Source: a virus (lineage: Duplodnaviria > Heunggongvirae > Uroviricota > Caudoviricetes). From it: 31,580 nt of DNA. Positions 1-19,900 of the stretch are shown in pieces. Below the pieces are notes generated by a model. That model ran no database searches. It was given only the letters and a program-made list of their open reading frames with translations, and was not told the DNA's origin. A program made the position numbers and the translations under genes. Positions within the stretch are counted from its first letter, which is position 1; each line of letters opens with the position of its first letter. The stretch is taken from positions 1 to 31,580 of the IMG/VR virus record IMGVR_UViG_2700989363_000008; one strand, given 5' to 3'.

Positions 1-3151
<3,151 letters not shown>

Positions 3152-3177
<26 letters not shown>

Positions 3178-3697
3178 TCAGCAACCCCGGTATCAGTTCA
3201 TCCAGCGCGGCTGCTTTGTTCATGGCTTTGATGATATCCCGTTTCAGGAAATCAACATGTCGGTTTTCCAGTTCCGGAAAACGCCGCTGCACCGACAGGG
3301 GGATCCCGTCGAGAATACTGGCAATTTCACCTGCGATCCGCGACAACACGAAAGTACAGAATGCGGTTTCCACCACTTCAGCGGAGTCTCTGGCATTCTT
3401 CAGTTCCTGTGCGTCGGCCTGCGCACGCGTAAGTCGGTGGCGTTCGTACTCAATAGTCCCTGGCTGGAGATCTGCCTCGCTGGCCTGCCGCAGTTCTTCA
3501 ACCTCCCGGCGCAGCTTTTCGTTCTCAATTTCAGCATCCCTTTCGGCATACCATTTTATGACGGCGGCAGAGTCATAAAGCACCTCATTACCCTTGCCAC
3601 CGCCTCGCAGAACGGGCATTCCCTGTTCCTGCCAGTTCTGAATGGTACGGATACTCGCACCGAAAATGTCAGCCAGCTGCTTTTTGTTGACTTCCAT
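3152..3697 (-). CDS. nu1: Terminase small subunit, lambda Nu1-like (181 aa)
   Basis: ORF MEVNKKQLADIFGASIRTIQNWQEQGMPVLRGGGKGNEVLYDSAAVIKWYAERD... matches lambda Nu1 from memory; 3' end overlaps the start of A. Confidence 0.95.
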
Positions 3698-3699
3698 TG

Positions 3700-3886
3700 C
3701 TCATTCCACGGACAAAAACAGAGAAAGGAAACGACAGAGGCCAAAAAGCTCGCTTTCAGCACCTGTCGTTTCCTTTCTTTTCAGGGGGTATTTTAAATAA
3801 AAACATTAAGTTACGACGAAGAAGAACGGAAACGCCTTAAACCGGAAAATTTTCATAAATAGCGAAAAACCGCGAGGTCGCCGCCC
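3700..3886 (-). other. cos: cos packaging site: cosB region upstream of nu1 and cosN 12-nt cohesive-end sequence at 3875-3886
   Basis: 3875-3886 reads aggtcgccgccc, the reverse complement of the lambda cohesive end GGGCGGCGACCT. The 3700-3874 stretch matches the lambda left-end leader (GGTTTTCGCTATTTATGAAAATTTTCCGG...) in reverse complement, as recalled. Confidence 0.85.
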
Positions 3887-3942: not shown

Positions 3943-4012
3943 CAATGTAGTCCGGTTTCTTCCACCATCGCACCGGACAGGCGACTATGAGGGGACAACG
4001 CCGCGCTCCGTT

Positions 4013-4131
4013 AACGCGGTAAACCCCGGTGTGTATCGTTTTTGATTATCCCCGCACACTCGCGCAGAGGAGTCTCCCTGTCGGGCTGCGGTCTCTGTTA
4101 ATGAGGGAATACAGCGACGATACGGCGCATG
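4013..4131. repeat. Direct repeat copy 1 (~118 bp, ~85% identical to copy at 5799-5916)
   Basis: gcggtaaaccccggtgtgtatcgtttttgattatccccgcacactcgcgcagaggag...cgggctgcggtc recurs at 5799-5916 with scattered substitutions. Together the copies bracket the cargo cassette. Confidence 0.8.
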
Positions 4132-4244: not shown

Positions 4245-4694
4245 CTATTTAATTAGTGATGCTGCGTATTCGATTAGATATAACTTAGGTGCCAACCAGA
4301 TTTTTAACCATGTCATATTGGTTACTACAGCAATAATAAAACTTACCCACAGAACAAAAACTGCTGCTAATGGTAAGATAAGAAAACTAATCTCACCGTT
4401 ACTTTCCCAAATCATAGTCGGTTTGTATTTAGGCTTCCCTTTTTCCCATGACCATCCTTCATTATCGAACTTACCAATTTCAACTTTTTGGTACTGTTTC
4501 TTCATAAACCAAATAACCAGCGGGATTGTTGAAATGGCTATTAATGTTTTAATCAGGCTATCAACCATATTCCATACCAGCAACTGATGAACAACATCCG
4601 GAATCTGAGCCTGACTGAATGCAATGGCGGAATCAATTCCATCGCTGGCCTTCTTCAATAAATCAACAAGAATTTTATTTGCTTCTTCTTGCAT
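4245..4694 (-). CDS. Small membrane protein (~149 aa, two predicted transmembrane helices), unknown function
   Basis: ORF 4245-4739; start preferred at the internal Met (4694), which has AGGA 6 nt upstream. Hydrophobic stretches LIKTLIAISTIPLVIWF and ISFLILPLAAVFVLWVSFIIAVV. AT-rich codon usage unlike the flanking phage genes. Confidence 0.55.
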   Translation of the reverse strand: MQEEANKILVDLLKKASDGIDSAIAFSQAQIPDVVHQLLVWNMVDSLIKTLIAISTIPLVIWFMKKQYQKVEIGKFDNEGWSWEKGKPKYKPTMIWESNGEISFLILPLAAVFVLWVSFIIAVVTNMTWLKIWLAPKLYLIEYAASLIK

Positions 4695-4818: not shown

Positions 4819-5679
4819 TTAGTTATGTAACTGCTTCCGGAATACAACAGCCGACGAGCTACAACGTAAAATTCGTTTGATTGTGGCAGTTGAGGAAACA
4901 GACTTGCATTTCTCAACATCATCAATAATGACCACATCCGGTACAGGAATGACGCGGGTATGCAATGTTTTTGCACTAATAACATCACAGCCATTCAGTG
5001 GTCGAATATCTGCATCTTCAGGCACTACCAGAAGCACACGTTTTTCCGGTGCAGAAAAGCCAGCAGCAAGAGTGCGTGACAATAAAGTCATTCCGCTGCG
5101 TGGCTTCATACAAATTTCAGAAATATGATTCTTTTCGTCCAAATGATGCTGGACATCATTTTTATCATCACTCAACAACTCTGCTGTTAATACAATCCCT
5201 GCTGTCTCAGATTTCCAGGAAATGCTGATATCCTGATCATCTGCATCAACATCATATTTCATCGAGTAAGGACTAAAGCTACGTCCAACGAACGCATCAT
5301 TTACCAGTACACGCCCACCCTGTCTGACCTGAAAGTCAACGCGCCCGGAAAGCTGATTTGCTGTTACAAGCAATGCCTTTTTTCTTTTTGTTTTATTGCT
5401 CATTGCCACCAACTGTTCAGCCATCTCTCTTGTCACACTACCAGAAACTCTTCCTTGCATTTTCACAGAAAATTTTCTGGATGTAGTAGCATCGACATTA
5501 AAAAATCTGGATGTAATCAGGCAGTTATTAACAATTGGCATCAGCTCACTTACGATTGTAAAAAATTCCCGGTAAAGCTCATTTTGCTTTTCAACACACA
5601 GCTTTCCACAATCGTCCAGCTTACGCTCAAGAGCACTTAACCTTTCCATTATTGAATTAATTTTTTGCAACTCTTTCAT
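4819..5679 (-). CDS. Hypothetical soluble protein (286 aa) with N-terminal coiled-coil-like segment; first gene of cos-proximal cargo cassette
   Basis: Start ATG at 5679 is preceded by AGGAGGTTTT (reverse complement of 5681-5690). The track's longer 373-aa ORF is an artefact of upstream read-through across the palindrome. No motif I can assign by eye. Confidence 0.65.
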   Translation of the reverse strand: MKELQKINSIMERLSALERKLDDCGKLCVEKQNELYREFFTIVSELMPIVNNCLITSRFFNVDATTSRKFSVKMQGRVSGSVTREMAEQLVAMSNKTKRKKALLVTANQLSGRVDFQVRQGGRVLVNDAFVGRSFSPYSMKYDVDADDQDISISWKSETAGIVLTAELLSDDKNDVQHHLDEKNHISEICMKPRSGMTLLSRTLAAGFSAPEKRVLLVVPEDADIRPLNGCDVISAKTLHTRVIPVPDVVIIDDVEKCKSVSSTATIKRILRCSSSAVVFRKQLHN

Positions 5680-5702: not shown

Positions 5703-5720
5703 GTGCGACCACGGTCGCAC
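5703..5720. repeat. Palindrome family 1 copy (GTGCGACCACGGTCGCAC): F-sopC-like candidate SopB centromere site
   Basis: Perfect 18-bp palindrome 24 bp upstream of the 4819-5679 start codon. Core TGCGACC-AC-GGTCGCA differs from the F plasmid SopB box TGGGACC-AC-GGTCCCA at one position per half-site. Confidence 0.6.
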
Positions 5721-5798
5721 GCTCCTGAATACATGCCCTGTTTCTTCCACCCTCGCACAGGACTGGCGAGCATGAGGGACAAACCCGCGAATCATTAG

Positions 5799-5916
5799 TG
5801 CGGTAAAAACCCGGTGTGCATCGTTTTTGATTATTTCCGCACACTCGCGCAGAGGAGTTCCCCGTCGGGCTACGGTCATGGTTAATGCGGAAATACGGCG
5901 ACGATGCAGCGCGGTA
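5799..5916. repeat. Direct repeat copy 2 (pairs with 4013-4131)
   Basis: See copy 1. Lies in the upstream region of the 286-aa gene, between two family-1 palindromes. Confidence 0.8.
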
Positions 5917-5922
5917 TTTAAT

Positions 5923-5939
5923 GTGCGACCACGGTCGCA
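5923..5939. repeat. Palindrome family 1 copy (GTGCGACCACGGTCGCA)
   Basis: 16-bp perfect palindromic core TGCGACCACGGTCGCA between the DUF4406-like gene and direct repeat copy 2. Confidence 0.6.
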
Positions 5940-5959
5940 AACGAGAAACAAAGAGATTT

Positions 5960-6271
5960 TTATGCTACAGAGGAACAAGCTGGCGGGTAATTCAGCGTAG
6001 TGAATACCGGCATCTCCATCTTGTATGCGTAATGATACTCAGCAGTTGCTCCAGCAGACGCTTTCCAGCCAGGAAGCATCAAAATAGCATCAGCACAACG
6101 AAGCATTGCAAAGCAAATATCCATGTATTCACGTTGTGTCAAACCATTAGGCAAAGTGGCTGGATTCAAGACAGAGTGACCATGTCGTGACAAACGATCT
6201 GCCTCTTTATTAAAGGCGTCACGATTAAAGTTCTCATATCCCGTCATTGGCCCGGCAATATAAATTTTCAT
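5960..6271 (-). CDS. DUF4406 / nucleoside 2-deoxyribosyltransferase-like small protein (103 aa)
   Basis: N-terminus MKIYIAGPMTG... is the characteristic Rossmann-like start of the NDT-like/DUF4406 family as recalled. Sits in the moron position downstream of Rz (where lambda carries bor). Confidence 0.55.
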   Translation of the reverse strand: MKIYIAGPMTGYENFNRDAFNKEADRLSRHGHSVLNPATLPNGLTQREYMDICFAMLRCADAILMLPGWKASAGATAEYHYAYKMEMPVFTTLNYPPACSSVA

Positions 6272-6312
6272 TCACTATCCAACAAATTGAGCTCGTTTTT
6301 GATACAGAGGGA

Positions 6313-6750
6313 TTAATTCAGGCATTGCGTCTTGATGTATTCCTGCAAGTAGTTAACCTGCGCAGTTATCCTGTCGATCCCACTTCGGAGACGGTAATAA
6401 TTGAGTTCAGCATCTGCTGTAAGTCTTGGGCTTTCTCCATCGCCCATGCTGCTGGCTCCGGTCGTTGACTTTGCACAGGTGGCGGCGACTTGCAGGCGCT
6501 TACGCCCAGCAGAAACATCAGCACGGAGGCTTTCGATAGTCGCGTTAGCATCAGCAAGCTCCTTTGTATATCTGGCATCGAGTTCTGCTACGTCACGTTG
6601 ACGCTTCTGCATATCAGCGATTGTGGATGTGGCTTTATCGCGCTGCTCTTTGTAGGAGATGGCGTTATCACGGTAATGATTAACCGCCCATGACAGGCAG
6701 ACGATGATGCAGATAACCAGAGCGGAGATAATCGCGGTTAACCGACTCAT
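6313..6750 (-). CDS. Rz: i-spanin Rz (145 aa from internal Met)
   Basis: [39 protein letters not shown]... closely resembles lambda Rz from memory; N-terminal TM anchor then coiled-coil. Confidence 0.9.
6366..6551 (-). CDS. Rz1: o-spanin Rz1 lipoprotein embedded in the +1 frame of Rz (~61 aa)
   Basis: [33 protein letters not shown]...: signal peptide with lipobox-like GVSAC followed by a proline-rich segment, nested within Rz as in lambda. Confidence 0.75.
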
Positions 6751-6838
6751 GACATCAACACCCCAACGGCCAGAAACCACGGCCACGCATCGTTGCCATT
6801 AAATGCGAGCAACGCTGCCATGAAAAAGAAAATCATGC

Positions 6839-7339
6839 TCATTGCTGCCCCCACAAACAGACTTCACGCTCAATCTCACGACGAGTCATCAGGCCTTTCC
6901 ATTGCTTACCGCCAGCAGATATCCAGCGACGTAGCTGATCACATGCGCCTTTGATATCGCCCTGGTTTATTTTGCGAAGAAGCGTCGATGTTCTGAAATT
7001 ACCAGCGCCCACGTTGTAAACGAACGAGTAAAGAGCGCCGCGCGTTGTTTCCGGTATATCGACTTTGATGTACGGGTTAATTTGTCTGGCGACAGTGGCA
7101 AGGTCTTTATTCAGGAGAGCTTTGCATTCTGCTTCGGTATACGTTTTACCTAGCATGATGTCTTTTCCAGTGTGTCCGTAACATACAGTCCATACGCCAA
7201 CAATATCTTTGTATGGTATGTAACTGACACCTTCCAGACCATCGTTACCACTTGGGCCAGTGATGAGCATAGACGCTATGGCAATAGCCCCGCCACCAAT
7301 AGCAGCTGTGACAGCTTTGCGTAATGATGACTGCATCAT
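6839..7339 (-). CDS. R: SAR endolysin (T4-lysozyme-like muramidase with N-terminal signal-anchor-release domain)
   Basis: N-terminal Gly/Ala-rich weakly hydrophobic SAR segment [20 protein letters not shown], then lysozyme-like core ...[22 protein letters not shown].... Positioned between holin and Rz. Confidence 0.85.
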
Positions 7340-7608
7340 ATTTCCTTCGGTGCTCTCTTCCCCAGCTCTCCAATAACCATCGCTGTAGCAGAAAGATTAT
7401 TGGTATTAGTTTTATCCAATATGTCCTGCAATATCTTCGTGCGCTTCATCTGCTCGCGTTTATTGAGCCGGTATGTAAGCACACCGAGGATAATGCTGAA
7501 CGCGACACCGATAATGAAGCTCCAATCCTGCAATGACAGGCTGGCAAAGAACGCAGCAAGACCAGCGCTACCATAAGGTGCACTTCTGTATAGTTCATCC
7601 ATCTTCAT
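7336..7608 (-). CDS. S: Holin (class II / pinholin-like) with dual-start motif
   Basis: 90-aa ORF starting MKMDEL (Met1-Lys-Met3, as in lambda S), two hydrophobic segments, charged C-terminus; immediately upstream of the SAR endolysin with overlapping stop/start. Confidence 0.7.
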
Positions 7609-7703: not shown

Positions 7704-8780
7704 TTACTCAAATAACTTTTTCACTTCATCAACTGTCTGAAGATAACGTTCGCCCTCAATCTCAATACCTATTGCCTGACGTCCTAACTTCAGCGCAGCT
7801 TTAATAGTTGAGCCTGATCCCATAAAGAAATCGGCAACGATATCTCCGGGGCGTGAACTACTCTTTATAATATGTTCCATCATCGCTGCAGGTTTTTCAC
7901 ATGGGTGCTTGCCAGGATAATATTGCACAGGAGGAAACTCCCATACATCGGTATAAGGTACATCAGCAGTAACATGAAATGGACGGCGTAAATTTTCATA
8001 CTGAGCCTTCAAATCATCATACTGCTTCTTTACTTCCTCATAATGCAATTTCAGATCGCTATAACGCTTTTCATGTTCTGAATAATCAACATTAAAAGGA
8101 TATGGACACGGGACACCGAGTGAATCTGCCTTCCTGCGAAATAATTCGCATAGTTTATAAAAATAAATAAATGATGGAAGCCGCCACTGCGAATAAGAAA
8201 ACCAGTGTGAACACATCTGCTTTCCTGTCGCTGAATTAATGTCTGCGGCTGATATATCTAACTGACGGCGAGCCAGCGAAAAAGCATCAATTAGTGGAGA
8301 AAAAATATTTTTTCTTAAATCTGCACATTTTGAAGCATAACCTGACTGACCTTTAGCATAACCTGACGCGCCGTAATGCTCTGCAAATAATATTCTTTCA
8401 GTAGCAGGAAAATAAGCCCTTAAACTTTCTTTATGACAACCGCGCCACATACCACTTGGTTTAGCCCAAATGATATGGTTCAGAACATTGAAACGGTCGC
8501 GAGTTAATAATTCAATTTTTGACGCAAGGCGAGAGCCGGTAAACATATACAGGCTGCCATTAGGGGCCAATATCCGCCAAAATTCTGCCAAAAATTCGTC
8601 AATCCACCCCAAAAAGTCAGCATCGCTATCCCACTGGTTATCCCATGCGTTAGCCTTTACGCCGAAGTATGGTGGGTCTGTTGCAATCAAATTGACCGAG
8701 TTATCAGGGATGGTTTTGATAAATTGCAGAGAATCTGCGCAAACGAGTTGTGCGCCATGAATATTAGTGGTTTTGAACAT
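7704..8780 (-). CDS. DNA methyltransferase, N6-adenine/N4-cytosine type (beta class; motif IV before motif I)
   Basis: DPPY motif near the N-terminus (NLIATDPPYFGV) and SAM-binding FFMGSGST near the C-terminus. Start ambiguous: 8780 preferred (MFKTTNIHGAQL...), 8825 alternative; neither has a strong SD. AT-rich. First gene of the apparent late transcription unit. Confidence 0.8.
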   Translation of the reverse strand: MFKTTNIHGAQLVCADSLQFIKTIPDNSVNLIATDPPYFGVKANAWDNQWDSDADFLGWIDEFLAEFWRILAPNGSLYMFTGSRLASKIELLTRDRFNVLNHIIWAKPSGMWRGCHKESLRAYFPATERILFAEHYGASGYAKGQSGYASKCADLRKNIFSPLIDAFSLARRQLDISAADINSATGKQMCSHWFSYSQWRLPSFIYFYKLCELFRRKADSLGVPCPYPFNVDYSEHEKRYSDLKLHYEEVKKQYDDLKAQYENLRRPFHVTADVPYTDVWEFPPVQYYPGKHPCEKPAAMMEHIIKSSSRPGDIVADFFMGSGSTIKAALKLGRQAIGIEIEGERYLQTVDEVKKLFE

Positions 8781-8872
8781 AGCTATTATTTTTTTGCCTG
8801 GGTAAGCTAACCCGGCGATGCGCATCGCGGGTGGGCTTTAGGTTCAGCCTATAGCTCTGGCATGGGTTGACC

Positions 8873-9024: not shown

Positions 9025-9042
9025 GTGCGACCGTGGTCGCAC
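9025..9042. repeat. Palindrome family 1 copy (GTGCGACCGTGGTCGCAC; extends to a 24-bp palindrome 9022-9045)
   Basis: Perfect palindrome in the intergenic region between ORF 9048-9275 and the late leader; central dinucleotide GT rather than AC (same site, inverted). Confidence 0.6.
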
Positions 9043-9510: not shown

Positions 9511-9675
9511 AATATCCTCCAAATTCATATAGTTAGTGGGTTATTGCCTCTCAATGACACGAACTGTAACTCTGCCAAACGAACACATCCAGTGTTATTT
9601 TTCGCTTTTTAGTGAAATTTTTAATTTGCGTTGTTTTCTTGTTTTGGTGTATTTTATGGATATGGAGGCTATAAT

Positions 9676-9987
9676 ATGTTTAACGTGATAACCCACCCTG
9701 CAGCACTGGATGAACTGCTTGAACTACCAGATGATTTGCGAGGTCGCATGACCAGATTAATTGAGCGACTGGAGAAAGAAGGCAACAAACTGAAGATGCC
9801 CCATAGCCGTGTAATAGGTGGAGGGCTTTTTGAACTACGAGTAGGGGATAAAAACATCGCAAGAACGCTGTACGCCTACGCGACTGGTAACGAAATTTAT
9901 CTATTGCATGCATTTGTAAAAAAGACACAGAAAACACCGGTGAAGGCTATCGAAATCGCCAGAACTCGCCTGAAGGAGATGAACTGA
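9676..9987 (+). CDS. Type II toxin, HigB/RelE-fold (phage Gp49-like family)
   Basis: MFNVITHPAALDELLELPDDLRGRMTRLIERLEKEG...GGGLFELRVGDKNIARTLYAYATGNEIYLLHAFVKKTQKTP fits the Gp49/HigB signature as recalled. GGAGG SD before ATG 9676; stop overlaps the antitoxin start (TGATG). Confidence 0.8.
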   Translation: MFNVITHPAALDELLELPDDLRGRMTRLIERLEKEGNKLKMPHSRVIGGGLFELRVGDKNIARTLYAYATGNEIYLLHAFVKKTQKTPVKAIEIARTRLKEMN

Positions 9988-10274
9988 TGAAAGCGAAAGG
10001 CATCCCGTTTAACGAAGTAAAAGAAAAACTCCTCAACACTCCAGAAGCCGTCAAAGGATATGAAGAGGCCGACAAAGAGCTGGAGATGGTCGAAATGCTA
10101 TACGAAATGAGGGAAAGAGCAGGTTTAACGAAATCAGCTCTGGCTGAACGAATGGGGTTGCGACCGTCAGCCATCAGCCGCCTGGAAAGCAATCCTTTAG
10201 GGGCAAGTATGAAAACTTTGGCTAAATATGCTCATGCCTGCGGCGCAACCATCGATATTCGCGCTGTTTATTAA
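9987..10274 (+). CDS. HTH-XRE antitoxin (HigA-like), partner of the Gp49/HigB-like toxin
   Basis: 95-aa protein with HTH segment LTKSALAERMGLRPSAISRLE; translationally coupled to the upstream toxin. Only plus-strand pair amid minus-strand genes. Confidence 0.8.
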   Translation: MKAKGIPFNEVKEKLLNTPEAVKGYEEADKELEMVEMLYEMRERAGLTKSALAERMGLRPSAISRLESNPLGASMKTLAKYAHACGATIDIRAVY

Positions 10275-14812: not shown

Positions 14813-15038
14813 TTTCTTGTGCGACCACGGTCGCACCCTCTCTGATTTCCAAGTAACGCTTAATCCAAAGATTTTCTATATGCTTATTACCTGGCTGATT
14901 TGATAAATACCAATCGGCAATTACAGACTGCTTATTACTATCTGGTCGTGTCCTGTAACCACAAGTTGGACACCAGATAACATATTCATTTCTTACCCCC
15001 GAATACCTTAATTCTGGCTTCGACGGTTTCCTGAACAT
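14793..15038 (-). CDS. Hypothetical zinc-ribbon protein (~81 aa)
   Basis: CPTCGYRTRP motif; start uncertain (15038 or 15113). Confidence 0.35.
   Translation of the reverse strand: MFRKPSKPELRYSGVRNEYVIWCPTCGYRTRPDSNKQSVIADWYLSNQPGNKHIENLWIKRYLEIREGATVVAQENENNAI
14819..14836. repeat. Palindrome family 1 copy (GTGCGACCACGGTCGCAC)
   Basis: Perfect 18-bp palindrome immediately upstream of the 14609-14812 start codon. Confidence 0.6.
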
Positions 15039-16900: not shown

Positions 16901-19900
16901 ATGACATTAAACGATTTCTATGCGGATCGCTTTGGCAGCGATCCGTTCTCGCTAATTGAAGCAGCACGGGATGAACTAACCGAGCTGGCACAGATGGCTG
17001 GTATCAACTGGCCTGCCTGTTCCGACAACATCCAACTCAACCCTCGCGGGGGGGTTGAGCGTTACTCTTCATACAATAAAACATCTCCAGAAGCTCTCGA
17101 AAAGAGCCTGAAAGGACGCGTAGAAATTTACTCCCGGCTGGAACACAGCAAAGGGATTGATTACCCGTTCATTAACTTCGTCCATAAAGGCAGCGATGCT
17201 GGCTCATGGAGCGGTTTCTCCTTCCTGTTTTCTGAATATCGCCGTGAGCAACAACGGAATAATGCGACCGTGGTCGCACAACCGGAAGAAGAACGGGAAA
17301 GAATAGAACGTCAGGCCGAAGCACGTCGTCGCCGTGAAGAACAAAAACGAATTAATGACCTGAAAAACAACCAAATGGACCATGAACGTTTGCTGGGATG
17401 GCTGGCATTCCACAGCGCGTGGGAACATGCTCCGGCTGAAGACGGCTCATGGCCATATGCGATTAAAAAAGGTATTCGTGACGTTTTTAGTTCATGTGAT
17501 GTGCGTCGCGTGACCAGTCACGACAGTGCGAAATGGAGTCGGGGACCAACCACATATATGGCTATCCCTCTGGCTCACCTGGACGGTCGTTACGATGGTC
17601 GTATTGTGGGTTGGCAGCGAATCGACAAACAAGGTGGGAAATACCAGACCAGCGCAGTAACCAGCGGCGATTTCGTCGGTGCCTGCTTTGTTATCGGTGA
17701 GCTGAAAGGGGCGCAAAACATCGCTGTTACAGAAGGTTTTGCTACTGGTGCATCCATCTGGCTTGCCACGAAAAAAGATAAACGCTTTGACGCTGTGGTT
17801 GTCGCTGTATCCGCTAACAACATGGTTCATGTTGTGGAACAACTGGTAAACATGTACCCGGCGGCAAAAATCACCTGCGCACTGGATAATGACCGGAAAT
17901 CTGCCACAGAAGGAAAAGGGAATACCGGCCTGCGGACTGGCTATGAAATCTTATCGAAATTCAACGATGTCCGCTGCGTCTATCCAACTTTTGAAGACGA
18001 TCCGCAAATGGAGTGCAGTGACTTCAACGACCTGCACAAACTACGTGGACTTCGTGAAACAGCACGTCAACTATTTGCAACAGCAAACCGCCTGAAAACC
18101 GGTACTGATTTGCTATCTCTGACGCTCAACCGCCTGAAGACAATTAAGCGGGATAACCGTCGTACTTTTGCCAAAGAGCTGCTGAGAGCGGTGGATATTG
18201 GCATGCTAACCTGCCCGGTTCCTAACAGTCCGTCAGATTTATTTAACATGTTCTGCATCGTTCTGCGTGAAATGGGACTGGAAAATATCTATCGCGCTAC
18301 GGTAAAAGACCACATTGCCCGTCGCCTGAATAAAAAGTGCCGTATTGCCCAGGCTCCGCGCTCTTTCAGCGAAAGCATAACTGATCCCAATAAACGCCCT
18401 CAACATATCACCTATAAGCGTTTTGAAACTTCGGTAATGACCGATGATGTCCTGAAGTACGTGCAATCACTACAGGGGATAGTCATCGTCCGTGCTGGTA
18501 TGGGTTCCGGCAAATCTACTGGATTGTTACGACCGTTAATGCATAGCTCAGAACGTGGTATCTCTGTTGCTCACCGTGTCTCCCTTATTGGTGGCCTGTG
18601 GGAAATGATGACAGAAGGAAAAGGTGTAAAAGCCGATATCCTGCACTATCAGGACCCTGGCTATCAGGAAATGGCTCCATACGCCAGTAAACTGACCATC
18701 TGCATAAACTCGATTGTTAAAAACTGCTGGCAACCGTTGATGCGCCAGCACGACTATTTTGGCTTTGACGAGGCCACGCAAGGGCTACGTGCCGTTCTTT
18801 CCGGTCGGGCTATGGAAAACCCGGTTGCTGTATTCAATACGCTAATTGACGCGCTGGCCAGAACGGAACAACACCCAATCATGGTGGATGCTGATGCGAA
18901 CGATCTACTGGTTGACTTGGCTGAACTGGCTATGAAACGCCGTGAAGATCTAGGTTTACCGGCATGGCTGCAGATCCACGTAATTGAATTACCTGTTGAT
19001 GTTCGCAACCGCGAAACAGGTGAGCCAATCCGGGTTTTTTATACAGAAAAAGATCGCATCATGACCGAGGTGGTGAAAGCTGTATCGGATGGCGAAAAAA
19101 TCATGTTGGCCACCGACAGCTCCACCTTTGCAGAAGATGTGACAGCCACCCTGAGAATGCATTTTCCTGGTAAGAAATTTCTGTGCGTAAACCAGAAAAG
19201 CAAACAGGATGAAGAAGTCGATGCCTTTACCAACCAGCCAAAAGTAATGGTGATGAAATACGATGGACTGATCTACAGCCCGTCGATTTCCTCCGGGGTG
19301 TCATTTGAGAAAAAACATTTTGACCGTCATTTCGGCATGTTCTGCGGTGAAGTTGTGCCCAGCGACGCAGTGCAAATGCTACGCCGCGACCGTACAGCAA
19401 AAGAATTTATTATCGGCTTTGATAAAGCTCGTGCAAAACGCGAGACTGATCCGCAAAAAATAGAACGTGCATTCGCCCAGGCATTACTTGCTACCGCAGG
19501 CATGAACGGTGAACTGACGGATGTCGTTTTCGATGGCGACCGTATATCAATGGGGGTGGCCAATACCGACTTTACCAGGATGAAAATTAAAGCTGCCGCA
19601 ATTGAAGCGTCTGCGCGTAACGACTACGCCAGCAACATGATCTGCATCATGCACAGCGACGGTTATAAGGTATCGCCATTAGCTACCGATTATGCCGCAA
19701 ATGATTTTGGTAAAGAGCTGCGCAAAGAAGCGCGGGATATTGTGTGGGAACAGACGCTGGATCTGCACCTCAATACAGAGACACCAGAAGAATCAGAGCG
19801 TGAAGAACTACTAAAAAAACGTGCGCTAACGCTTGAAGAACAGGCAAAACTGGTCCGCTGGGATATTGAGAACGAACTGAAATTACCGGTTGAAGAAGGC

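What the first reader, a model, noticed from the sequence alone, without database searches (positions are those of the whole stretch)
5960..6271. DUF4406 / nucleoside-2-deoxyribosyltransferase-like gene in the lysis-cos moron slot
The MKIYIAGPMTG... N-terminus is typical of NDT-fold proteins. In phages these small enzymes may act on nucleosides or nucleotide-derived signals. It occupies the position where lambda carries bor, next to the cargo cassette.
Basis: partly seen in the sequence, partly recalled or inferred. Interest (0 to 1): 0.4.

Follow-up and report, generated by a model that had tools for sequence, protein, structure and literature searches.

The report
N15 gp57-type DUF4406 enzyme gene
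This is a real small phage gene, already annotated in public records, for a stripped-down relative of nucleoside deoxyribosyltransferases; it is the counterpart of phage N15 gene 57, most likely cuts bases off deoxynucleotides, and has never been tested.

Summary
The ORF at 5960-6271 (minus strand, 103 aa) is real. It matches Pfam DUF4406 over its full length (E 3.7e-34). A confident AlphaFold model has the nucleoside-deoxyribosyltransferase (NDT) superfamily fold.

The gene is not new. It is 100% identical to a hypothetical protein of phage PhiR46_1 and 83% identical to N15 gp57. RefSeq already names it "DUF4406 domain-containing protein".

The window is an N15-like linear plasmid prophage. 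In N15-like elements of Escherichia, Enterobacter, Yersinia and apparently Klebsiella, the gene sits in the same place: methylase, holin, lysozyme, Rz, DUF4406, variable genes, terminase. It is therefore a conserved end of the late/lysis operon, not a bor-like moron. The variable slot starts just downstream.

My best guess (about 0.45) is a 2'-deoxynucleoside 5'-monophosphate N-glycosidase that edits the nucleotide pool.
- Tyr4, Ser72 and Glu78 are conserved and align with Tyr13, Ser87 and Glu93 of DNPH1/Rcl.
- Distant members are fused to dNTP pyrophosphatases.
- In other phages the gene lies in replication modules.

Against this, the third catalytic residue is Cys rather than Asp/Asn, and the C-terminal part of the fold is missing. 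I found no support for a role in immune-signal degradation. Interest is low.

The parts
5960..6271 (-). CDS, 103 aa. DUF4406 (minimal NDT-superfamily) protein, ortholog of N15 gp57. Predicted catalytic/ligand residues are Tyr4, Ser72 and Glu78. Family-specific motifs are G7-P-M-T-G11, N16-R17, F20, N36-P-A-x-L-P41, Y49 and W69.
   Evidence: ORF; Pfam and PHROG matches; AF2 model with pLDDT 91.9; Foldseek; conservation; 83% identity to N15 gp57.
6272..6312 (-). 41-nt spacer between the Rz stop and the DUF4406 start. It carries a weak GGA ribosome-binding match upstream of the ATG. No promoter-like or terminator-like site was found, so read-through from the lysis genes is inferred.
   Evidence: Sequence; promoter/terminator scan.
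6313..6786 (-). Rz spanin gene (Rz1 is embedded at 6366-6578). It lies immediately upstream on the same strand.
   Evidence: Pfam Phage_lysis, E 5.6e-37; ORFs.
6839..7339 (-). Endolysin (lysozyme) gene of the same gene string.
   Evidence: Pfam Phage_lysozyme, E 4.5e-46.
7336..7608 (-). Holin gene of the same gene string.
   Evidence: Weak Pfam holin matches, below cut-off; annotated as holin in PhiR46_1.
7704..8825 (-). N6/N4 DNA methyltransferase gene that heads the conserved string methylase-holin-lysozyme-Rz-DUF4406.
   Evidence: Pfam N6_N4_Mtase, E 9e-47; the same string is seen in N15, Enterobacter and Yersinia elements.
5923..5939 (.). N15-type SopB centromere palindrome (GTGCGACCACGGTCGCA), 21 nt after the DUF4406 stop codon. 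It marks the downstream end of the conserved block. A second copy lies at 5703-5720.
   Evidence: Repeats; identical to the N15 IR1/IR4 sequences in Table 4 of PMC7205306.

Best explanation
The gene encodes the N15 gp57-type DUF4406 protein. This is a ~90-residue, four-stranded minimal version of the nucleoside-deoxyribosyltransferase (NDT) superfamily fold.

It is transcribed with the late/lysis genes (inferred). I propose that it binds a 2'-deoxynucleoside 5'-monophosphate and cleaves the N-glycosidic bond. Glu78 would attack C1' to form a covalent deoxyribosyl-5-phosphate enzyme intermediate. Tyr4 would orient the Glu and exclude ribose. Ser72 and the G7-P-M-T-G11 loop would make room for and bind the 5'-phosphate. 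The base is released, and the sugar phosphate passes to water (hydrolase) or to another base (phosphodeoxyribosyl transfer).

The biological role would be editing or cleaning of the deoxynucleotide pool during phage DNA replication and packaging. Base specificity is unknown.

Shown here: the ORF, family, fold, conserved residues, synteny, and fusions of relatives. Inferred: substrate class, chemistry, timing of expression and biological role.
For: - Family and fold: Pfam DUF4406 E 3.7e-34. AF2 pLDDT 91.9, pTM 0.85. Foldseek PDB hits 1-35 are all NDT-superfamily enzymes (NDT, DNPH1/Rcl, MilB, BcmB, BlsM, 1T1J), with query-normalised TM 0.57-0.75.
- Conserved residues: among 150 representatives at 50% identity, Tyr/Phe4 is present in 143, Ser72 in 147 and Glu78 in 144.
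- Residue mapping: three independent alignments place Glu78 on the nucleophile Glu and Ser72 six residues before it. These are an HMM alignment to T. brucei and L. mexicana NDT, hhalign to rat Rcl, and profile-profile hhalign to a DNPH1 alignment (pairwise E 1.5e-4). They give Y4=Y13, S72=S87 and E78=E93 of Rcl.
- Phosphate versus hydroxyl: NDT transferases carry Asp/Asn at the Ser72 position to hold the 5'-OH, whereas dNMP hydrolases carry small uncharged residues. Tyr next to the Glu excludes ribose (PMC12884076).
- Fusions: mycobacteriophage Baka gp170 is DUF4406 plus a MazG/PRA-PH-like pyrophosphohydrolase. BFVD structural relatives are named 'dATP/dGTP diphosphohydrolase N-terminal domain-containing protein'. 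This parallels the experimentally shown DutZ-DmtZ pair, dATP to dAMP to adenine (PMC12884076).
- Neighbourhoods: in 8 of 8 diverse phages sampled, the gene lies among DNA polymerase, clamp, DnaQ, helicase, exonuclease, SSB, RusA or MazG genes. In Salmonella lambdoid prophages it lies just after the replication genes.
Against: - No DUF4406 protein has been assayed. Three papers mention the family and none is functional.
- The third residue of the NDT catalytic triad (Asp69 in Rcl, Asn in TbPDT and DmtZ) aligns with Cys53. That position is Cys in 95, Asp in 23 and other residues in the remaining 32 of 150 relatives. The nearby Asp51 is conserved in only 73 of 150.
- The fold has four strands and ends at about residue 91. 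It lacks the C-terminal segment that in NDT and DNPH1 supplies active-site residues from the partner subunit.
- Sequence similarity to DNPH1 is marginal (hhalign probability 25%). Pfam NDT models score below their cut-offs.
- Close relatives show no informative fusion partner.
- In N15-like phages the gene sits in the late operon, not in the replication module.
- I had no model coordinates, so residue proximity was not checked.
Confidence: 0.45

Rival explanations
1. A true nucleoside 2'-deoxyribosyltransferase (EC 2.4.2.6). It would swap bases between free deoxynucleosides for salvage, as the PHROG and many phage annotations name it.
For: PHROG 355 and many GenBank records call relatives 'nucleoside 2-deoxyribosyltransferase'. 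The best two Foldseek hits are NDTs (2a0k, 6evs). A phage PF05014 NDT with transferase activity has been reported (10.1101/2025.10.22.683976).
Against: PF05014 scores 20.7 bits against a cut-off of 28.8. The Asp that holds the 5'-OH in NDTs is an invariant Ser here. The C-terminal segment of NDTs is absent. The annotations are transfers by remote similarity, not tests.
Confidence: 0.12
2. An anti-defence enzyme or sponge. It would destroy or bind a nucleotide-derived immune signal or trigger (cADPR isomers, cyclic oligonucleotides, NAD+-derived molecules, or a modified dNMP such as m6-dAMP).
For: The wider TIR/DrHyd/SLOG class includes NAD+- and ADPR-processing immune enzymes (PMC9503650). A defence system triggered by m6-dAMP exists (10.64898/2026.01.15.699771), so a dNMP glycosidase could in principle remove such a trigger. 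In N15-like phages the gene lies in a region rich in accessory genes.
Against: There was no PADLOC hit and no NCBIfam hit. No neighbourhood or fusion links it to signalling or defence genes. The survey in PMC9503650 reports that the only NAD+-related DrHyd versions it found in viruses are predicted ARC-type cyclases. The gene is conserved in replication modules of very different phages. All of this is absence of evidence; nothing was tested directly.
Confidence: 0.08
3. A protein of the same fold with a different job. It could be a non-catalytic nucleotide binder or regulator, or an N-glycosidase for another adenosyl/ribosyl compound (for example S-adenosylhomocysteine, to relieve product inhibition of the co-expressed phage DNA methyltransferases).
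For: The canonical Asp/Asn of the triad is missing and the fold is truncated. The gene is in one string with a DNA methylase here and in other N15-like elements. It overlaps a C5-methylase gene in N15. It abuts methylase genes in Gordonia phage Mulch and Pseudomonas phage H66.
Against: Glu78, Ser72 and Tyr4 are kept in more than 95% of relatives (Tyr or Phe at position 4), which argues for catalysis of the usual kind. Methylase adjacency is absent in most contexts sampled. Fusions are to dNTP pyrophosphatases, not to methylases.
Confidence: 0.15

Closest known systems
Bacteriophage N15 gp57 (NP_046953.1, annotated 'DUF4406 domain-containing protein')
   Same: 83% identical over 98 residues. 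Same family (Pfam E 7e-35). Same map position after the methylase-holin-lysozyme-Rz string and before the terminase end of the genome.
   Different: N15 has a small gene 56 between Rz and gene 57, and a C5-cytosine methylase gene (58) that overlaps the end of gene 57. Here the gene follows Rz after 41 nt. Downstream come SopB centromere palindromes, a 180-nt repeat and two unknown cargo genes. Neither protein has a tested function.
DNPH1/Rcl, 2'-deoxynucleoside 5'-phosphate N-hydrolase (PDB 2KHZ, 4FYH, 8QHR)
   Same: Same fold (Foldseek TM 0.57-0.69). Aligned Tyr (Y4/Y13), phosphate-site Ser (S72/S87) and nucleophile Glu (E78/E93).
   Different: Rcl Asp69 aligns with Cys53. DNPH1 has a fifth strand and a C-terminal segment that completes the neighbour's active site. 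DNPH1 belongs to Pfam PF05014, which this protein does not reach. Sequence similarity is marginal (hhalign probability 25%).
DmtZ of Z-genome phages Ghobes and Wayne (dAMP N-hydrolase / deoxyribose-5-phosphate transferase; PMC12884076)
   Same: A phage-encoded NDT-superfamily enzyme acting on a dNMP. It works downstream of a dNTP pyrophosphatase, to which it is fused or adjacent. This matches the MazG- and DUF5664-type fusions of DUF4406 relatives.
   Different: DmtZ is about 145 aa with five strands and a Tyr6/Asn77/Glu103 triad, plus Trp124 from the partner subunit. It has no Pfam model and occurs in phages that replace A by 2-aminoadenine. The present phage shows no sign of such a pathway.
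Lactobacillus nucleoside 2'-deoxyribosyltransferase (PDB 1F8X; Pfam PF05014)
   Same: Rossmann-like fold, Tyr after strand 1, and Glu nucleophile in an x-G-x-x-x-E helix start.
   Different: NDT has Asp92 where this protein has Ser72, plus Asp72, Asn123 and a catalytic C-terminal carboxylate that have no counterpart here. PF05014 scores below its cut-off. A single-sequence hhalign gave only a spurious 9-residue match.
MilB / BcmB / BlsM CMP N-glycosidases
   Same: Same fold (TM 0.63-0.71). They act on nucleoside 5'-monophosphates.
   Different: By established knowledge (Sikowitz et al. 2013, cited in PMC12884076), these ribo-specific enzymes have Phe in place of the Tyr. This protein has Tyr4, which predicts a preference for deoxyribose.
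Lambda bor (moron between Rz and cos)
   Same: Map position between Rz and the cos/terminase end.
   Different: bor is a lipoprotein gene on the opposite strand with its own promoter. This gene is co-directional with the lysis genes, has no promoter-like site of its own, and is conserved across N15-like phages.

Membership tests
Pfam DUF4406 (PF14359) | Full-length match to the family model above the curated cut-off | tested here: met
   117.4 bits against 22; residues 1-90 on model positions 1-90 of 91.
Pfam DUF4406 (PF14359) | Family signature residues (G7, G11, F20, N36-P-A, P41, Y49, W69, S72, G74-A75, E78) | tested here: met
   All are present in the window protein. Each is at least 90% conserved among 150 representatives at 50% identity.
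NDT / N-(deoxy)ribosyltransferase-like superfamily | Rossmann-like alpha/beta fold shared with NDT, DNPH1 and MilB | tested here: met
   AF2 pLDDT 91.9. Foldseek probability 1.00 and TM 0.57-0.75 to these enzymes. The model has only four strands.
NDT / N-(deoxy)ribosyltransferase-like superfamily | Nucleophile Glu at the start of the helix after the third strand, and Tyr/Phe after strand 1 | tested here: met
   E78 and Y4 align with the catalytic Glu and Tyr. They are conserved in 144 and 143 of 150 relatives.
NDT / N-(deoxy)ribosyltransferase-like superfamily | Third triad residue Asp/Asn (Asp72 in LlNDT, Asp69 in Rcl, Asn77 in DmtZ) | tested here: not met
   The aligned position is Cys53. 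Across the family it is Cys in 95 and Asp in 23 of 150. The neighbouring Asp51 is present in only 73 of 150.
NDT / N-(deoxy)ribosyltransferase-like superfamily | C-terminal strand/helix that supplies active-site residues to the partner subunit | tested here: not met
   The model ends with strand 89-91, and residues 92-103 are of low confidence. The family model is only 91 positions long.
Nucleoside 2'-deoxyribosyltransferase proper (PF05014, EC 2.4.2.6) | Match to PF05014 above the curated cut-off | tested here: not met
   20.7 bits against 28.8.
Nucleoside 2'-deoxyribosyltransferase proper (PF05014, EC 2.4.2.6) | Asp/Asn that binds the 5'-hydroxyl of a nucleoside | tested here: not met
   The aligned residue is Ser72, present in 147 of 150 relatives. 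The rule is as stated in PMC12884076.
Nucleoside 2'-deoxyribosyltransferase proper (PF05014, EC 2.4.2.6) | Base-exchange activity between deoxynucleosides | not testable with these tools
   This needs an enzyme assay.
DNPH1/Rcl-type dNMP N-hydrolase | Small uncharged residue (Ser) at the 5'-phosphate site, six residues before the Glu | tested here: met
   S72 aligns with Ser87 of Rcl.
DNPH1/Rcl-type dNMP N-hydrolase | Significant sequence homology to DNPH1 | tested here: inconclusive
   Profile-profile hhalign gave probability 24.9% and pairwise E 1.5e-4. There was no phmmer or hmmsearch hit to DNPH1 in the PDB.
DNPH1/Rcl-type dNMP N-hydrolase | Hydrolysis of dNMP to base plus deoxyribose 5-phosphate | not testable with these tools
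   This needs an enzyme assay.
Lambdoid 'moron' (bor-like autonomous insert) | Own promoter and terminator, patchy presence among close relatives, deviant composition | tested here: not met
   No promoter-like or terminator-like site lies between Rz and the gene. The gene is present at the same place in N15, Enterobacter and Yersinia elements. G+C is 0.43-0.48, close to the lysis genes and above the 0.36-0.42 of the cargo genes.
Known anti-phage defence or anti-defence components | Match to a PADLOC model or linkage to defence genes | tested here: not met
   No PADLOC hit. Neighbours are lysis, replication or small phage genes.

The most novel reading that the evidence does not exclude
DUF4406 proteins could be a large untested class of phage dNMP N-glycosidases with an unusual Tyr/Cys/Glu active site. 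Their role would be to erase modified or 'alarm' deoxynucleotides, for example methylated dNMPs such as the m6-dAMP that triggers PUA-Cal-HAD immunity, or damaged/analogue nucleotides made by host defences. In N15-like phages they would be expressed together with the phage DNA methylases. That would make gp57-type genes a widespread anti-defence or pool-sanitising function.
Probability: 0.07. Interest if true: 0.65.

Novelty: already known. Interest (0 to 1): 0.2.

Why it matters
The gene itself is ordinary and already annotated. The family is large: about 20,000 clusters at 50% identity, and matches in 559 of 50,697 phage records. Nobody has tested it biochemically. A simple enzyme assay on this 103-residue protein would assign a function to a common phage gene. 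It would also show whether an NDT-fold enzyme can work without the usual Asp/Asn and without the C-terminal segment. If the substrate turned out to be a modified dNMP or an immune signal, the family would become a new anti-defence class. Nothing here shows that.

Tried and rejected
- Sequence search of the PDB with the protein found nothing. The profile search gave only sub-threshold NDT hits and two chance hits.
- NCBIfam and PADLOC gave no hit.
- I looked for fusion partners in 62 longer relatives. Pfam found nothing beyond DUF4406 in 20 of them. PHROGs gave only singleton unknown families. Many of these 'extensions' are probably gene-call artefacts or small unknown genes.
- Single-sequence hhalign to L. 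leichmannii NDT gave a spurious 9-residue match.
- I considered a general link to DNA methylases. It is seen in N15, Mulch, H66 and five IMG/VR loci. I rejected it as a rule because most contexts lack it.
- Neighbour clustering in 80 IMG/VR loci gave only lambdoid nin-region small genes, DnaB, Rz and N15 gp56/gp58 types.
- Literature searches found no functional study. 'DUF4406' occurs in three papers, none functional; 'PF14359' occurs in none; 'phage N15' with 'gene 57' occurs in none.
- Rfam found nothing in the repeats next to the gene.
- I had no access to model coordinates, so distances between Tyr4, Cys53, Ser72 and Glu78, and a dimer model, could not be examined.

Full report
**Observation**

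An ORF runs on the minus strand from ATG at 6271 to TAA at 5960. It encodes a 103-aa protein starting MKIYIAGPMTGYENFNRDAF. It matches Pfam DUF4406 over the whole model (117.4 bits, cut-off 22, E 3.7e-34). It also matches PHROG 355, labelled nucleoside 2-deoxyribosyltransferase (E 3e-45). The related models PF05014 (NDT), PF15891 and DUF1937 score below their cut-offs.

**Genomic setting**

The window is an N15-like linear plasmid prophage.
- It encodes a protelomerase (23031-24944, four TelK domains).
- It encodes SopA/SopB partition proteins (25592-27723).
- It encodes a large Toprim-containing replication protein (16901-20884).
- It encodes a Gp49/HTH pair (9631-10274).
- Its nearest phage records are PhiR46_1 and the Ravinvirus YDC107_1.

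On the minus strand the gene order is as follows:
1. DNA methylase (7704-8825).
2. Holin (7336-7608).
3. Lysozyme (6839-7339).
4. Rz/Rz1 (6313-6786 and 6366-6578).
5. A 41-nt spacer.
6. DUF4406 (5960-6271).
7. Two palindromes and a 180-nt repeat.
8. Two unknown genes (4819-5679 and 4245-4694).
9. A second copy of the repeat.
10. The cos region.
11. Nu1 and terminase A.

**Is it a moron?**

The protein is 83% identical to N15 gp57, which the RefSeq record already names a DUF4406 protein. It is 100% identical to a hypothetical protein of PhiR46_1.

The same string (N6/N4 methylase, holin, lysozyme, Rz or DUF2514, DUF4406, variable genes, terminase) recurs in Enterobacter elements. It also recurs in a Yersinia element with a different terminase type. 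A Klebsiella element shows an ORF layout consistent with this, although that record has no annotation.

No promoter-like or terminator-like site lies between Rz and the gene. Its G+C (0.43-0.48) resembles that of the lysis genes, while the two cargo genes are lower at 0.36-0.42.

So the gene is the conserved last member of the lysis-proximal block of this phage group. The variable slot begins after it. The likeness to lambda bor is positional only.

In complete E. coli genomes this allele occurs in 38 of 5,426, on ~46-kb plasmids and in chromosomes. It is always annotated as DUF4406.

**Fold and active site**

An AlphaFold2 model built on 39 homologs has pLDDT 91.9 and pTM 0.85. Its topology is strand 2-6, helix 17-29, strand 33-35, helix 46-58, strand 62-65, helix 73-84, strand 89-91, and a disordered tail.

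The best 35 Foldseek matches in the PDB are all NDT-superfamily proteins. They include NDTs from trypanosomatids, Bacillus and Chroococcidiopsis, plus DNPH1/Rcl, MilB, BcmB, BlsM and the DUF1937 protein 1T1J. Query-normalised TM-scores are 0.57-0.75.

The family is very large: 19,931 clusters at 50% identity at E <= 1e-3. Among the best 150 representatives, the positions at least 90% conserved are G7, G11, F20, G31, N36, P37, A38, P41, G43, L44, Y49, I52, M56, L66, W69, S72, G74, A75, E78 and A82. Position 4 is Tyr in 124 and Phe in 19.

Three alignments agree on the residue mapping:
- an HMM alignment to T. brucei and L. mexicana NDT;
- hhalign to rat Rcl, whose sequence I verified against PDB 2KHZ;
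- a profile-profile hhalign to 108 DNPH1 sequences (pairwise E 1.5e-4, probability 25%).

All three place Tyr4 on the triad Tyr, Glu78 on the nucleophile Glu, and Ser72 on the residue six positions before the Glu. That residue is Ser87 in Rcl and Asp in NDTs.

According to PMC12884076, NDT transferases use Asp/Asn there to hold the 5'-hydroxyl. dNMP hydrolases have small uncharged residues that leave room for the phosphate. The Tyr helps exclude ribose. This pattern predicts a 2'-deoxynucleoside 5'-monophosphate substrate.

Two features depart from every characterised member:
- The triad Asp/Asn aligns with Cys53. That position is Cys in 95 and Asp in 23 of 150 relatives, and the nearby Asp51 is kept in only 73.
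- The C-terminal strand and helix that complete the partner's active site in NDT and DNPH1 are absent.

**Context in other phages**

tblastn finds relatives in 559 of 50,697 phage records, mostly phages of Vibrio, Mycobacterium, Gordonia and Arthrobacter. In eight diverse phages sampled, the gene lies in the replication/recombination module:
- next to DNA polymerase (Rhizobium RHph_Y52);
- next to clamp and DnaQ, with RusA and MazG two to three genes on (Gordonia BigShaq);
- near helicase and Cas4 exonuclease (Arthrobacter JaNo);
- near a resolvase and DnaQ (mycobacteriophage EniyanLRS);
- near an exonuclease (Microbacterium Caron), or an exonuclease and SSB (Vibrio K251);
- next to a Gam-like nuclease inhibitor (Pseudomonas H66);
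- near an RNase H-like gene (Vibrio Cla).

In Salmonella lambdoid prophages it follows the replication genes and DUF977.

Mycobacteriophage Baka gp170 is a fusion of DUF4406 with a MazG/PRA-PH-like pyrophosphohydrolase. Close structural relatives in BFVD are named as containing the dATP/dGTP diphosphohydrolase N-terminal domain.

The nearest experimentally characterised phage analogue is DmtZ of Z-genome phages. It is an NDT-superfamily dAMP N-hydrolase and deoxyribose-5-phosphate transferase. It acts after the pyrophosphatase DutZ and is fused to it in phage Wayne (PMC12884076). The repeated pairing of a dNTP pyrophosphatase with an NDT-fold domain supports a dNMP substrate for DUF4406 too.

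**Interpretation**

My best explanation (confidence about 0.45) is a dNMP N-glycosidase, or phosphodeoxyribosyl transferase, that uses Glu78 as nucleophile. It would serve deoxynucleotide pool editing during phage DNA synthesis and packaging. In this phage it would be expressed by read-through from the late/lysis genes.

The rivals are:
- a true nucleoside deoxyribosyltransferase (0.12), disfavoured by Ser72, the sub-threshold PF05014 score and the missing C-terminus;
- an anti-defence enzyme or sponge for nucleotide signals (0.08), for which I found no positive evidence;
- another role for the same fold (0.15), such as a non-catalytic binder or an SAH-type nucleosidase helping the co-expressed methylases. 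This is prompted by the missing Asp/Asn and by occasional methylase adjacency.

No paper in the library reports a function for DUF4406.

**Verdict**

The finding is real, and its family and fold assignment is right. However, it is an already annotated, conserved N15 gp57 ortholog, not a moron. Its suggested link to immune signalling is unsupported. The residual interest is that a very common phage family with an atypical active site remains untested.

**Side observations**

The 18-nt palindromes next to the gene (5703-5720, 5923-5939) and three more in the window (9026, 14820, 17263; none expected by chance) are identical or nearly identical to the N15 SopB centromere sites IR1-IR4 listed in PMC7205306.

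The 180-nt sequence at 5735-5915 is repeated at 3950-4130, at about 85% identity. The two copies bracket the two cargo genes. The same element occurs, unannotated, at 4,929 places in 3,181 of 5,426 E. coli genomes. There it lies between the lysis genes (or bor/iss) and ylcI/terminase in lambdoid prophages. It looks like a conserved module-junction sequence.

Noticed in passing
window 5704-5719, 5924-5939, 9026-9041, 14820-14835, 17263-17278: Five copies of the palindrome TGCGACC-NN-GGTCGCA, with none expected by chance. They are identical or nearly identical to the N15 SopB centromere sites IR1-IR4 (GTGCGACCACGGTCGCAC and variants) listed in PMC7205306. Two of them flank the repeat just downstream of the DUF4406 gene, and one lies inside the replication gene.
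   Followed up: yes
window 3950-4130 and 5735-5915: A ~180-nt direct repeat (about 85% identity) brackets the two unknown cargo genes. The element is unannotated. It occurs at 4,929 places in 3,181 of 5,426 complete E. coli genomes, between the lysis genes (or bor/iss) and ylcI/terminase of lambdoid prophages. It has no Rfam match. It may be a module-junction or recombination sequence, or a regulatory region.
   Followed up: partly
window 4819-5679 (-) and 4245-4694 (-): Two cargo genes (286 aa, PHROG 2571; 149 aa, PHROG 3054). They have no Pfam or PADLOC match and low G+C (0.36-0.42). They are present in PhiR46_1 but replaced by a different single gene in YDC107_1. This is the real variable slot.
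   Followed up: partly
L010 (phage N15) 6234-7542; L007 (Gordonia phage Mulch) 2492-3585; L112 (Pseudomonas phage H66) 1992-2515: In several unrelated phages the DUF4406 gene overlaps or abuts a DNA methyltransferase gene: the N15 gp58 C5-methylase, Mulch gp66, and an H66 C5-methylase fragment. Most other contexts lack this, so I did not treat it as a rule.
   Followed up: partly
L003 (mycobacteriophage Baka) 2486-3211: gp170 is a fusion of DUF4406 (residues 7-111) with a MazG/PRA-PH-like pyrophosphohydrolase (146-189). It lies next to a PAPS-reductase-like gene.
   Followed up: partly
window 21431-21631 (+) and 27790-27993 (-): Rfam matches above gathering score: c4-a1b1, isrK and C4 antisense RNA (a P1/P7-type immunity antisense RNA locus), and the IS009 RNA just after the sopAB genes.
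   Followed up: no
window 3722-3778: A 25-nt inverted repeat (84% complementary, 7-nt gap) lies just upstream of Nu1, in the expected cos region (I2).
   Followed up: no
window 5885-6190 (+): A 101-aa ORF lies antisense to the DUF4406 gene. It has no support and is probably spurious. In lambdoid prophages, bor/iss lies downstream of the 180-nt element on the window's + strand; that is the direction that runs antisense into DUF4406 here.
   Followed up: no
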